36,201 nt of DNA, from IMG/VR virus record IMGVR_UViG_2711768014_000012. One strand, 5' to 3'. Position numbers: made by a program. Position 1 is the first letter of the stretch; each line of letters starts with the position of its first letter. Positions 26,501 through 29,500 of the stretch are shown in pieces. This DNA comes from a virus. Lineage: Duplodnaviria > Heunggongvirae > Uroviricota > Caudoviricetes.

Positions 26501-29500
26501 ACCGGTCCCCACTCCACCAGCATTCTTTTCACCTGGCTGTCGTCTTCCCACACCCCCGCGTGGGTCAGGGCGTCAAACAGCGCCTTGTTATAGTTGTCCA
26601 GATCGCGGATCCGGTTATCCGGAGGAAACAACACGATCTCCACTGAAGCAGGTGCCGACGTTGGTTTTGGCAGACGACGTAACTGCTCAACTATTGCTGC
26701 GCACGCCGCGCTCTGAAATTTTCGCCCCGCCGCGCTTATCAGGCTCTTACCAGCAAATGCCCCTTTGTTGGGGTGTCGCCAGTACGTGTTCACGCTGGGC
26801 GGGAAAGGCAGGATCAGCTTCATACTTTCAGGCCTCTCTCATGTAACCAGTGGGTTGCACGCAGCCTGGCGTTTTCCTCACCGGCAAGCAGTGAGCGGAT
26901 AATCCCGACCGCCTCGCTGTCGTCGTCCTTCACCGCGGTATGAAGAGTGATACCCCGGGCCATGCCACGCTTTATCGTGATGACGCCTTTTTTCTCCAGT
27001 GCGCGAAGATGTTCCACCGCTGCATTCACTGAACGGTATCCCAGCATGGTTGCCACCTCCTGATTGGTTGGCGGGAAGCCACGTTCTTTCTGGTAAGAAA
27101 TCAGCATATCCAGCACCTGCTGCTGGCATTGAGTTAACGTCGTCATGCCGCCATCTCCCTGACCAGTTTTTCCGCCTGCTGGCGAACCTGCGCCAGAAAC
27201 GCCTCACCACATGCCTCAAGTTCATCGCGCCCGATGTAGCTGATTGCCGGTCCCTTCCAGGTCTTGTCGAAAACAGCAATAGCACCAGCGAAGAAAGCGC
27301 CTGTCGGCACCTGCTTCTCGTCCTTCGGGATAAACCAGGCAGGCAGTTCAAAACCAATACGCCCGCGAATAAAAGCAATATGATCTGCATCTTCCGGCCA
27401 CCACACTTCGCTGGTGGCAGCTTTGATCAGGAAAACATAGCGTCCGCCCTTATCACGCATGGCACTGGCATGTTTCATGATGTAACGCATGCCGGTGATG
27501 TATTGCCCTTCATGCTGACTGGCGCGGCTGTACGGGGGATTACCAAAGGCAGCACCTTTAAGCTCCGCAAGACGTTCAGACCAGTCATGCGCCAGCGCGT
27601 TGTCTTCCGCAGTGTAATAAGCGGCACATTTGGCGTTATCACCATCAGTGAACAGATCCAGAACAAACGGGCCAAACAGGGTGTTAATTCCCCAGAAAAT
27701 GTTATCCGGCGTGCGCCACTGATCGCCCACTTCCTTCAGTTCATGGGCTGGTTTGTTCCGCAGCTCCACCAGCGCCTGGCAATATTTATTACTCATTAAG
27801 CCCCCACGTAATTCCCTGACAGATACCACTCTTCACCCGATGCAGCGCGCTTGCTGCTTTTCCGTAAGCACCGCTCACGACGCGCCAGAAAATTGTTTCG
27901 TTCTGGCTGGGAGTGGCTTTCACGGAATGCCGCCATCCACACCGTTGCAGCACGACGGTATAAGCCCCTGGACTCCAGTTCTTCCGCCTGGCGGGTCAGG
28001 CACAAAATCACCCGGGGATCGTTAGTGCCGACATAGAAATTGCGCACAGGTCTGGTTTCACGAACTGGTTGTGGTTCCGGCTCCTGCGCTCTCTCAGTCA
28101 GGCGTGGGAAATGTCTGCGTGTATCTCCTTCATAACGGTGAGCCACACGCCCACTCTGACGTAACTTGCTTGCTGACTGCAGAACGCGCTGCCGTGAGTA
28201 ACCTGCAAAAGCATCCGCAATGTCTCCGGAAGTACACCCCGGATGGGCTTCAATGAATTTCTGAACTTCATTCAAAAGACTCATGATCACCCCCTGAATC
28301 CTGCCGGGATCTGGCTGTAGTCCACGTTGTCGTAACTGGCTTTGAAGTACGGGTCCTCGCGTCTGGCTGCAGATACCGCAGGAACTTCCCAGAATTCTTC
28401 GAAATGACGATCCGGACCAAAGAACGTGACAGCCTGTTTCACAAATTGTGTGCCGCTGTTACCCATCGCAGATACCCATCCCGCGTAGCGTTTCACACCT
28501 TCCAGCATGGTTTCGGGGTTTACTCCCTCATTCAAACGGGCTTTCCAGGCTTTGAAGGCTGCAGATTTTGAATTGCCACCAGCACGTTTGGGATATGCCA
28601 GCCATGCCTGCTCAAACTCCGGAGAGTATTCCGGTCGGTTTGAACGAACTCGCACGGACTCATCAACTGATGCACCAACAGCTATTGGTTCATTGACTGG
28701 TTCTTTGACTGGTTCAAAAGAGTGACTGGTTCTGGGTGAATCTCCTGCACTACCCCCTGGTGCAACTCCTGCACTACCTGGTGAATTTGCTGCACCAGAT
28801 AGTGAATTATTTGCACTACCCCCTAGTGAATCTCCTGCACCATCCAGATGAAGGAGATAGATATTACTTGAGTTACCTTTTTCACCTTTCCGGGTGACTT
28901 TTTTTACCAGCCCGGACTCACAAAGGGCCGCAATATGATTCATCACAGAACGTTTGCTAATTTCGCACTGGTCAGCAATATGCTGGTAGCTGGGCCAGCA
29001 CTCACCCTGATCGCTGGCATTATCAGCCAGCTTGATCAGAACCAGTTTTCGCAATGGATTACCCACTCGAATTTTCATCGCTTTAACCATCAGCTCCATA
29101 CTCATGCTGCACCTCCGAGATGCTTCATGTTTTTTCCGGAGCGAAAGGCTATAAGCGGCATACTGACGCGGTAATTACGGCCCAGCGGTTCACAAATCAC
29201 CTTCTGGCATTCACGGTCAACCAGGCTAACACGTAGAACATGCCCTGCAGGCGTGGTGTACCACTGCCCAACTGTAGGAATTGATATTTTTTTACGCTGA
29301 AGCAAACGGCAAATATTGAGGATCAACGGATTAAGCATGACGATGCCCTCCGCTGATATTCAGGAGACGGTGAATATGAAAATTAGCCTTATCCGCCAGA
29401 CGAATACGTTCAGCTTGCAAGTTAAGAAGGGTTTCTACCAGAACCTGATGTGCCTGCGGATCCGAAAGAGTTACCTTGCGCAGAGCACGTAGTGCAGTTG

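What the first reader, a model, noticed from the sequence alone, without database searches (positions are those of the whole stretch)
26820..27146. Stand-alone LexA-type DNA-binding domain without protease domain
The 108-aa protein matches the LexA N-terminal winged-helix pattern but lacks the S24 autoprotease domain. It could act as a non-cleavable LexA mimic that modulates SOS boxes or prophage induction, or as a regulator of a neighbouring accessory gene.
Basis: partly seen in the sequence, partly recalled or inferred. Interest (0 to 1): 0.45.

Follow-up and report, generated by a model that had tools for sequence, protein, structure and literature searches.

The report
Phage LexA-like DNA-binding protein, protease-less
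This is a real, very common prophage gene for a small protein that copies the DNA-gripping half of the bacterial DNA-damage repressor LexA but lacks the half that switches LexA off; databases already name it, but I found no test of its function.

Summary
Window 26820-27146 (minus strand) encodes a 108-aa protein with a full-length LexA_DNA_bind domain (Pfam E 2e-19). It is 50% identical to E. coli LexA residues 1-70 and has no S24 protease domain.

- **Structure:** instead of the protease domain it ends in a conserved 34-aa two-helix tail with no known relative.
- **Context:** the gene lies in the early "nin" region of an mEp460/SfV-like lambdoid prophage, with 4-base start/stop overlaps to Dam upstream and RusA downstream.
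- **Status:** it is under purifying selection (dN/dS 0.23), occurs in 41% of complete E. coli genomes, and is already catalogued (PHROG 362; NCBI "LexA family transcriptional regulator"). It is lost by clean deletion in some phages, so it is accessory.
- **Function:** I found no experimental study.

Four of LexA's five base-contact residues are kept; Glu44 is replaced across the whole family. The likeliest role is a RecA-insensitive LexA-type operator binder made while host LexA is being destroyed. This is untested. Phage SOS boxes are no commoner in phages carrying the gene. The one characterised precedent, GIL01 gp6, is an activator with its own site.

Verdict: ordinary annotated gene, open mechanism, modest interest.

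The parts
26820..27146 (-). CDS of the 108-aa LexA-like protein (stop codon included). Equivalent to mEp460 gp46 and SfV orf42.
   Evidence: ORF list; Pfam; PHROG 362 full-length match, 4e-59; 97-98% nucleotide identity to mEp460, SfV and Stx2c phages.
26937..27146 (-). Residues 1-70: LexA-type winged helix-turn-helix (helices 6-22, 28-35, 40-52; strands 56-58, 66-68).
   Evidence: AF2 secondary structure; Foldseek to 3jso, rmsd 0.9 A and 50% identity; 35/70 identical to E. coli LexA.
26991..27029 (-). Recognition helix, residues 40-52 (VNAAVEHLRALEK). LexA has PNAAEEHLKALAR.
   Evidence: Alignment to 1lea; LexA contact residues Ser39, Asn41, Ala42, Glu44, Glu45 as stated in PMC3091678; family conservation.
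26823..26924 (-). Residues 75-108: family-specific C-terminal two-helix tail (helices 75-88 and 93-103). Inferred oligomerisation or partner-binding module.
   Evidence: AF2 (block pLDDT 89/89/83); R84, L86, A88, R96, A97, L101, G105 conserved down to 40% identity; no PDB or Pfam relative; dN/dS 0.33.
27155..27158 (-). GGAG Shine-Dalgarno sequence, 8 nt upstream of the ATG, inside the end of the Dam gene.
   Evidence: Read directly from the sequence.
27143..27829 (-). Upstream gene: phage Dam N6-adenine methyltransferase. Its TGA overlaps the ATG of the LexA-like gene (ATGA).
   Evidence: Pfam PF05869, 1e-45; sequence.
26434..26823 (-). Downstream gene: RusA Holliday-junction resolvase. Its ATG overlaps the TGA of the LexA-like gene (ATGA). 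This pairing is conserved in relatives of 41-57% identity.
   Evidence: Pfam PF05866; synteny.
22532..22551 (.). The only strong LexA-type operator in the window (TACTGTAAAAATAAACAGTG on the minus strand), over codons 3-9 of the late-region N6_N4 methyltransferase. It is a candidate target only; no link to this protein is shown.
   Evidence: PSSM score 22.4 against a shuffle maximum of 15.4; exact CTGT-N8-ACAG; sequence. The box is also present in phages lacking the LexA-like gene.

Best explanation
The gene encodes a small accessory DNA-binding regulator of a lambdoid prophage. It is a LexA-type winged helix-turn-helix fused to a private two-helix C-terminal tail.

**Shown.**
- The fold and domain, and the absence of the S24 cleavage/dimerisation domain.
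- Purifying selection.
- A fixed position in the early rightward (nin) operon, immediately upstream of and overlapping RusA.
- Repeated clean loss in related phages.

**Inferred.**
- It is made only when the prophage is derepressed or on infection. No promoter-like site precedes it on its strand, and the prophage cI carries an S24 domain, so induction is presumably coupled to SOS.
- The tail replaces LexA's C-terminal domain as the element that brings two DNA-binding domains together.
- Because the recognition helix is nearly LexA's, it binds CTGT-type (SOS-box-like) operators.
- Since RecA* cannot make it cleave itself, it acts as a damage-insensitive stand-in for LexA. It would keep or restore repression of LexA-controlled promoters (host SOS genes, SOS-controlled genes of other elements, or phage boxes) while host LexA is being destroyed.
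For: **Domain, fold and contact residues.**
- LexA_DNA_bind match over the whole model.
- 50% identity to the E. coli LexA N-terminal domain.
- 0.9 A superposition on DNA-bound LexA.
- S39 and N41 are invariant, and A42 and E45 are kept in this subfamily. The contact list comes from PMC3091678.

**No protease half.** There is no S24 domain, and the protein falls below the lexA equivalog cutoff.

**Tail.** It is conserved to 40% identity, modelled as two confident helices, and has dN/dS 0.33.

**Operon position.**
- ATGA overlaps on both sides.
- No minus-strand promoter-like site between the cro region and the gene.
- The cI gene carries Peptidase_S24.

**Link to the SOS circuit in a sister lineage.** In L002, L209 and L214 the homologue lies in a unit headed by a promoter-like site followed directly by a near-consensus LexA box. 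In sibling phages the same unit carries dinI, a known SOS shut-off factor (PF06183), and only a 5' remnant of the LexA-like gene. dinI and the LexA-like gene tend to alternate: 7, 1, 3 and 0 loci in the four classes, Fisher p = 0.024. The loci are few and not independent.
Against: - Glu44, one of LexA's five base-contact residues, is never Glu in the family. Positions 42-45 vary in distant members (NTIAGH, NAAAFH, NAATDM). That argues for altered or diversified specificity.
- Strong SOS boxes are not enriched in loci with the gene: 2.6 per 100 kb against 3.8 per 100 kb without it.
- The window's one box lies inside a late gene and also occurs in phages lacking the gene.
- Dimerisation through the tail is only inferred. 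The monomer model has pTM 0.57, and no multimer prediction was possible.
- The only characterised stand-alone phage LexA homologue, GIL01 gp6, is an activator with a non-LexA site (PMC6182141).
- No binding or expression data exist.
Confidence: 0.4

Rival explanations
1. It is a phage-specific transcription factor of the GIL01 gp6 kind. A LexA-derived domain has drifted to its own operator and activates or represses a particular phage or host promoter, with no role at SOS boxes.
For: GIL01 gp6 is exactly such a truncated LexA homologue. It binds GaCACA..TGTGaC and activates the late promoter. In this family Glu44 is always replaced and the recognition helix varies among subfamilies. The protein diverges faster than its neighbours: 42-56% identity against 64-80% for RusA. 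There is no association with phage SOS boxes.
Against: No alternative palindrome stands out in the window. There are no CTAT or CTCT half-site palindromes at N8, one CTTT site in the structural-gene region, and no enriched spacing of inverted CTGT half-sites. The helix is far closer to gamma-proteobacterial LexA than gp6 need be. Late genes here are controlled by a Q antiterminator, so a late activator is not required.
Confidence: 0.3
2. It is a DNA-binding accessory of the neighbouring DNA-transaction genes. It targets or modulates RusA resolvase or the upstream methyltransferase rather than transcription.
For: The order methyltransferase (three unrelated families), LexA-like, RusA is conserved, with 4-base overlaps, in relatives of 41-57% identity.
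Against: Natural variants have Dam fused directly to RusA with the gene cleanly absent (L049, L069, L073, L088). L002-type phages have no methyltransferase and carry an extra ORF before RusA. Nin-region gene order is conserved by descent anyway. No interaction evidence exists.
Confidence: 0.1
3. It is an anti-LexA decoy. It occupies SOS boxes, or half-sites, without repressing, or it displaces LexA. That would raise SOS gene expression or speed induction.
For: It has the same LexA-like recognition helix. It lacks LexA's dimerisation domain, so occupancy could be weak or non-repressive.
Against: Operator occupancy at LexA boxes normally occludes RNA polymerase whichever protein is bound (established knowledge of LexA operators). 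The conserved tail suggests a proper assembly. In the sister lineage it alternates with dinI, which damps SOS.
Confidence: 0.07
4. It is a decaying relic of a captured lexA gene with no present function.
For: There is weak similarity of residues 78-90 to the LexA hinge and cleavage region (VGRVAAGE against IRSLLAGE). The gene is frequently deleted.
Against: dN/dS is 0.23 (0.15 in the DNA-binding domain). Only 1 of 46 protein variants has an internal stop. 2223 of 2233 E. coli genomes with a match have at least 80% coverage. The tail is conserved down to 40% identity across genera.
Confidence: 0.03

Closest known systems
E. coli LexA N-terminal DNA-binding domain (PDB 1lea, 3jso)
   Same: Same winged-helix fold (0.9 A rmsd) and 50% identity over residues 1-70. 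Identical Ser39, Asn41, Ala42, Glu45, His46, Lys53, Gly54, Arg64-Gly65-Ile66.
   Different: No S24 catalytic/dimerisation domain (Ser119/Lys156). Glu44 is replaced by Val. A 34-residue two-helix tail sits in place of LexA's hinge and cleavage loop. It is phage-encoded and sits in an early lytic operon, not behind its own LexA-box promoter.
GIL01 (Bacillus thuringiensis tectivirus) gp6, a truncated LexA homologue (PMC6182141)
   Same: A temperate-phage protein consisting of a LexA DNA-binding domain without the C-terminal domain, about 44% identical to its host's LexA, and made from an early operon after induction.
   Different: gp6 is described as the bare winged helix with no extra helical tail. 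It recognises its own palindrome and activates the late promoter P3. Here late genes depend on a Q antiterminator, the helix is closer to host LexA, and no target is known. Sequence relatedness to gp6 was not tested because its sequence was not at hand.
PHROG 362, NCBI 'LexA family transcriptional regulator' (SfV orf42, mEp460 gp46, Stx-phage pham 237)
   Same: This is that family: a full-length profile match and 97-99% identity to the named phage genes.
   Different: Nothing. The family carries only a homology-derived label ('transcriptional repressor'). I found no functional study.
LexA(Ind-) non-cleavable mutants and the LexA 1-84 cleavage fragment
   Same: A functional analogy: a LexA-specificity DNA binder that RecA* cannot switch off.
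   Different: Those keep LexA's own dimer interface (Ind-) or none at all (the fragment, which binds weakly and is degraded; from my own knowledge). This protein has its own conserved tail and an E44V change.
Prophage-encoded DinI
   Same: In sister phages dinI occupies the same LexA-box-headed nin transcription unit and tends to alternate with the LexA-like gene. Both could damp the SOS response.
   Different: Unrelated fold and mechanism: DinI acts on the RecA filament, not on DNA. There is no dinI in this window.

Membership tests
LexA_DNA_bind domain family (Pfam PF01726) | Profile match above the gathering score, covering the domain | tested here: met
   69.5 bits against 23.7; residues 1-65 on model positions 1-65 of 65.
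LexA_DNA_bind domain family (Pfam PF01726) | Three-helix winged-helix fold superposable on the LexA N-terminal domain | tested here: met
   AF2 model pLDDT 84; Foldseek to 3jso_B, rmsd 0.9 A over 68 columns.
LexA repressor proper (TIGR00498 equivalog; MEROPS S24) | Full-length match above the equivalog cutoff | tested here: not met
   71.3 bits against a cutoff of 110.95; only model positions 1-91 of 203 are matched.
LexA repressor proper (TIGR00498 equivalog; MEROPS S24) | C-terminal Peptidase_S24 domain with the Ser/Lys dyad | tested here: not met
   No PF00717 hit; the protein ends at residue 108.
LexA repressor proper (TIGR00498 equivalog; MEROPS S24) | Ala-Gly self-cleavage site in an extended cleavage loop | tested here: not met
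   An A88-G89 pair aligns with LexA A84-G85. It varies in relatives (AN, VG, AC, DD, ER) and lies in a confidently predicted helix.
LexA repressor proper (TIGR00498 equivalog; MEROPS S24) | The five base-contacting residues Ser39, Asn41, Ala42, Glu44, Glu45 | tested here: inconclusive
   Four of five are kept here; Glu44 is Val and is never Glu in the family (contact list from PMC3091678).
LexA repressor proper (TIGR00498 equivalog; MEROPS S24) | Binds CTGT-N8-ACAG SOS boxes and represses | not testable with these tools
   Needs EMSA, ChIP or a reporter assay.
PHROG 362 (phage 'transcriptional repressor') | Full-length profile match | tested here: met
   E 4.3e-59; residues 1-108 on profile positions 1-106 of 106.
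GIL01 gp6-type late-gene activators | Stand-alone LexA DNA-binding domain encoded by a temperate phage | tested here: met
   description of gp6.
GIL01 gp6-type late-gene activators | Own palindromic site overlapping the -35 element of a late promoter, and activation of it | not tested
   No candidate site was found. The late operon here follows a Q antiterminator gene. Sequence homology to gp6 was not examined.
Known anti-phage defence systems (PADLOC) | Significant match to a defence-system protein model | tested here: not met
   Only a marginal hit to a CARF-associated helix-turn-helix region, E 3e-4.

The most novel reading that the evidence does not exclude
Lambdoid prophages of Enterobacterales carry a RecA-proof LexA surrogate. 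It is produced only once the prophage is induced (or from a LexA-box promoter). It dimerises through its own helical tail and re-occupies SOS operators after host LexA has been cleaved. That would shut down host SOS functions and SOS-triggered rival elements during lytic growth, a job done in sibling phages by phage DinI. Because the gene sits in about 41% of complete E. coli genomes, prophage content would then shape SOS output (mutagenesis, filamentation, induction of other prophages) in a large share of strains.
Probability: 0.25. Interest if true: 0.6.

Novelty: new member of a known kind. Interest (0 to 1): 0.33.

Why it matters
If the protein really re-imposes LexA-type repression without being cleavable, a very common prophage gene (2233 of 5426 complete E. 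coli genomes, including Stx2c-converting phages) would modulate the SOS response. That response controls mutagenesis, antibiotic tolerance and cross-induction of other prophages. If it instead has its own operator, it is one more phage-specific regulator. Either way the question is cheap to settle by EMSA and an SOS reporter. As it stands, this is a correctly recognised, already annotated gene of unknown function.

Tried and rejected
1. **Tail as a known domain.** A profile of the 34-residue tail against PDB sequences gave a best E of 0.7. Against Pfam it gave only a sub-threshold NIL hit, E 0.03. Foldseek of the whole model against PDB and viral structures matched only the winged helix.
2. 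**Tail as a LexA cleavage-site mimic or pseudo-substrate.** HMMER extends the alignment to LexA residue 86. However, the Ala-Gly pair is not conserved and the segment is modelled as a helix. I treat it as a vestige at most.
3. **A nearby operator for regulating a neighbour.** There are no convincing inverted repeats in 25500-28400 and no promoter-like site on the gene's strand upstream.
4. **Other half-site spacings or variants.** CTGT-Nx-ACAG for x = 0-20, everted and direct arrangements, and CTNT-N8-ANAG were all scanned. Only the canonical box at 22532 stands out. The direct-repeat excess is scattered in coding sequence and reflects codon and strand bias.
5. **SOS box next to the gene in L004/L006.** CTGTAGGGGGTGACAG overlaps the stop codon, ribosome-binding site and start codon. 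In L005 the spacing is 7. I judged it a chance match.
6. **Association of phage SOS boxes with the gene.** A controlled comparison in 53 DUF968-bearing prophage loci from different species showed no enrichment. The earlier viral-contig sets were near-identical phages and uninformative.
7. **Defence-system membership.** Negative.
8. **Literature.** Six full-text searches aimed at this protein family found no functional work on the enterobacterial family. The LexA-DNA structure paper could not be fetched.
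Full report

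Yes. The window has an ATG-to-TGA ORF of 108 codons at 26820-27146 on the minus strand. Evidence that it is a LexA-type domain without the protease half:
- Pfam LexA_DNA_bind (PF01726) matches residues 1-65 across the entire 65-position model (E 2.1e-19, 69.5 bits against a gathering score of 23.7). No Peptidase_S24 match was found.
- NCBIfam's lexA equivalog matches only its first 91 of 203 positions and scores 71.3, below its 110.95 cutoff.
- Against PDB sequences the best hits are all LexA. The top hit is the E. coli LexA DNA-binding domain 1lea (E 9e-16).
- Ungapped identity to E. coli LexA residues 1-70 is 35/70.
- An AlphaFold2 model built on 22 family members has mean pLDDT 84. It shows helices 6-22, 28-35 and 40-52, a two-stranded wing (56-58, 66-68), a low-confidence linker (71-74), and two further helices at 75-88 and 93-103.
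- The N-terminal part superposes on DNA-bound E. coli LexA (3jso) at 0.9 A over 68 columns.

Evidence that the ORF is a real gene:
- A GGAG sequence lies 8 nt before the ATG.
- Among 90 distinct alleles recovered from related loci, dN/dS is 0.23. It is 0.15 for residues 1-70 and 0.33 for residues 71-108. Only 1 of 46 protein variants carries an internal stop.

**2. Where it sits**

The window is an mEp460/SfV-like lambdoid prophage. On the minus strand, the early rightward direction, the gene order is:
- cro-like, cII (CP76), Ash, replication protein
- PerC-like, Dam (PF05869)
- the LexA-like gene
- RusA, KilA-N, DUF968/HNH, Q antiterminator
- a beta-class N6_N4 methyltransferase, then the lysis genes

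The cI gene (plus strand, 31050-31724) carries a Peptidase_S24 domain. The LexA-like ATG overlaps the Dam stop codon (ATGA at 27143-27146). Its own stop overlaps the RusA ATG (ATGA at 26820-26823). No promoter-like site is found on the minus strand between the cro region and the gene. There is also no operator-like palindrome around it. The inference is that it is expressed as a delayed-early gene by read-through from the early promoter. That means expression during induction or infection, not in the lysogen.

**3. The family**

The gene is mEp460 gp46 and SfV orf42, and it occurs in Stx2c-converting phages.
- It matches PHROG 362 over its full length (E 4e-59).
- It is found in 2233 of 5426 complete E. 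coli genomes, where PGAP calls it "LexA family transcriptional regulator" or "LexA family protein".
- A Stx-phage survey lists it only as a pham with pfam01726 (PMC8136144).

HMMER against 1.84 billion representatives, followed by a profile search, recovered relatives of 40-57% identity. They are 104-135 aa long, and those whose source is named come from Enterobacter, Citrobacter, Buttiauxella, Dryocola and other Enterobacterales. All share the winged helix and the C-terminal tail. The tail motif is roughly EA..(I/L)(I/L)R.L(L/V)A....AR.RA...L...G. R84, L86, A88, R96, A97, L101 and G105 are invariant or nearly so within the 22-sequence set.

The tail has no detectable relative in PDB sequences or Pfam. 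Stand-alone LexA DNA-binding domains of 65-150 aa are common among predicted viral structures, including tectiviruses and mycobacteriophages. Proteins with two tandem copies of the domain also exist.

**4. Conserved context and dispensability**

In four relatives of 41-57% identity the gene again lies in the nin region directly before RusA, with a 4-base overlap in three of them. Downstream come an antirepressor-like gene, DUF968 and Q. Upstream is a DNA methyltransferase of varying, unrelated families: Dam PF05869, D12-class, or a C5+D12 fusion.

The protein diverges faster than its neighbours. It is 42-56% identical, against 64-80% for RusA and 55-62% for DUF968.

It is also repeatedly lost:
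- In L049, L069, L073 and L088, Dam abuts RusA exactly.
- L035 keeps only the last 19 codons.
- In a second lineage only the leader, the ATG and about 25-40 codons survive.

It is therefore a promoterless accessory gene, not a core function.

**5. What does it bind?**

LexA's base-contacting residues are Ser39, Asn41, Ala42, Glu44 and Glu45 on helix III (PMC3091678). Here the helix reads S39-V-N41-A42-A-V44-E45-H, against LexA's S-P-N-A-A-E-E-H. So four of the five are kept. Other LexA residues kept include Q8, P26, E30, L47, A49, L50, K53, G54, I56 and R64-G65-I66. This sequence places the domain with the E. coli-type LexA proteins that read CTGT half-sites.

There are two cautions. Position 44 is never Glu in the family (Val, Ala, Thr or Phe). 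Distant members also change positions 42-45 (NTIAGH, NAAAFH, NAATDM). Specificity may therefore be relaxed or shifted.

LexA needs its C-terminal domain to dimerise. I infer that the conserved helical hairpin takes over that role. This could not be tested: only monomer prediction was available, and the model's pTM is 0.57.

**6. Candidate operators**

I built a LexA position weight matrix from 20 E. coli boxes recalled from memory. Their training scores range from 13 to 27. It finds exactly one strong site in the window, at 22532-22551. The site reads TACTGTAAAAATAAACAGTG on the minus strand and scores 22.4, against a maximum of 15.4 in 60 shuffles. It covers codons 3-9 of the 350-aa methyltransferase downstream of Q. 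No other half-site arrangement stands out.

Related phages carry other near-consensus boxes:
- Inside the linker-coding part of S24-type cI genes in mEp460 and L007.
- In L002, L209 and L214, immediately after a promoter-like TTGCAA-17-AATAAT that heads the unit orf81, LexA-like, orf66, RusA, DUF968, Q.

I ran a control using 53 DUF968-bearing prophage loci from different species.

| Loci | Number | With at least one box scoring 18 or more | Boxes per 100 kb |
|---|---|---|---|
| With the LexA-like gene | 24 | 10 | 2.6 |
| Without it | 29 | 19 | 3.8 |

So there is no positive association. The methyltransferase box in particular is conserved across genera with and without the gene. Phage SOS boxes are thus most simply explained as sites for host LexA. 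They may also be bound by the phage protein, but they are not its dedicated partners.

**7. A circumstantial link to SOS damping**

In the orf66-type nin lineage the LexA-box promoter is followed by a dinI homologue (PF06183, E 1e-25) in eight loci. Seven of those eight lack the LexA-like gene and L202 has both; alignment of three of the seven shows they keep its 5' remnant. Three loci without dinI have the LexA-like gene. Fisher's exact test gives p = 0.024. The loci are few and phylogenetically related, so this is a hint only. DinI is an established inhibitor of RecA co-protease activity. Alternation with it in an SOS-controlled unit fits the idea that the LexA-like protein also tempers the SOS response.

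**8. Mechanism and rivals**

| Reading | Probability | Main points |
|---|---|---|
| RecA-insensitive, LexA-specificity operator binder, assembled through its private tail and made when the prophage is derepressed. It keeps LexA-type promoters shut while host LexA is cleaved. | ~0.4 | See sections 5-7 |
| gp6-like regulator with its own site | ~0.3 | GIL01 gp6 is a truncated LexA homologue that binds GaCACA..TGTGaC and activates a late promoter (PMC6182141). The Glu44 replacement and helix variability favour this. Against it: no candidate site, and late genes here use a Q antiterminator. |
| Partner of RusA or the methyltransferase | ~0.1 | Weakened by the clean natural deletions and variable neighbours |
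| Anti-LexA decoy | ~0.07 | |
| Relic of a captured lexA | ~0.03 | Contradicted by dN/dS |

**9. Comparison with what is known, and novelty**

The protein is a member of the LexA_DNA_bind domain family and of PHROG 362. It is not a LexA repressor in the defined sense. It has no S24 domain, scores below the equivalog cutoff, and has no conserved cleavage site.

It works, at least architecturally, like GIL01 gp6, and conceptually like a non-cleavable LexA. I found no experimental paper on the enterobacterial family in six full-text searches.

It is therefore a new, uncharacterised member of a known kind.

**10. Verdict**

Interest is modest (0.33). The gene is ordinary and catalogued. However, the surrogate-LexA hypothesis is cheap to test, and it concerns a gene present in about two-fifths of sequenced E. 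coli.

Noticed in passing
window 22532-22551 (within the methyltransferase gene 21507-22559, minus strand): A near-consensus LexA/SOS box covers codons 3-9 of the late-region 350-aa beta-class N6_N4 DNA methyltransferase. That enzyme looks like the prophage M.EcoGII type: 349 aa, non-specific adenine methylase, harmful when expressed constitutively, silent in lysogens (PMC5778455). The box position is conserved across many genera, so host LexA may help keep this enzyme off.
   Followed up: partly
L001 (mEp460) 12522-12541; L007 576-595: Near-consensus LexA boxes (PSSM scores 25.6 and 25.5) lie inside the coding sequence of S24-type cI repressor genes. They sit in the linker between the helix-turn-helix and the protease domain, in two phages with different immunity regions. 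The first type recurs in 25 of 80 related viral contigs. Their function is unknown.
   Followed up: partly
L188, L202-L206, L211, L217 at about 8710-9650; L002 5531-6608: A recurring nin-region unit was found: a promoter-like site plus a LexA box, then dinI-like, orf81, (LexA-like or its remnant), orf66, RusA, DUF968 and Q. This suggests that in these prophages the Q antiterminator operon can be reached from a LexA-controlled promoter. L002's repressor has no S24 domain, which fits SOS sensing by another route.
   Followed up: partly
L049, L069, L073, L088, L035 (viral contigs): Precise natural deletions of the LexA-like gene leave Dam and RusA coupled by the same ATGA overlap. L035 retains only the last 19 codons.
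   Followed up: yes
window 27796-28290 (minus strand): A 164-aa PerC-family regulator, which PGAP names yfdN in some E. coli genomes, lies two genes upstream. PerC-like prophage proteins are known to act on host virulence promoters (from my own knowledge).
   Followed up: no
proteins P0132, P0134, P0146, P0148, P0150, P0153: Some database proteins contain two tandem LexA_DNA_bind stretches. That would be another way to bring two LexA-type domains together without an S24 domain.
   Followed up: no
window 782-910, 1313-1637, 2561-2725, 5152-5437, 5781-6011, 20991-21367: In the FASTA copy of the window supplied to the script tool, 1513 bases in six stretches are masked as N. None is near the finding.
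   Followed up: no
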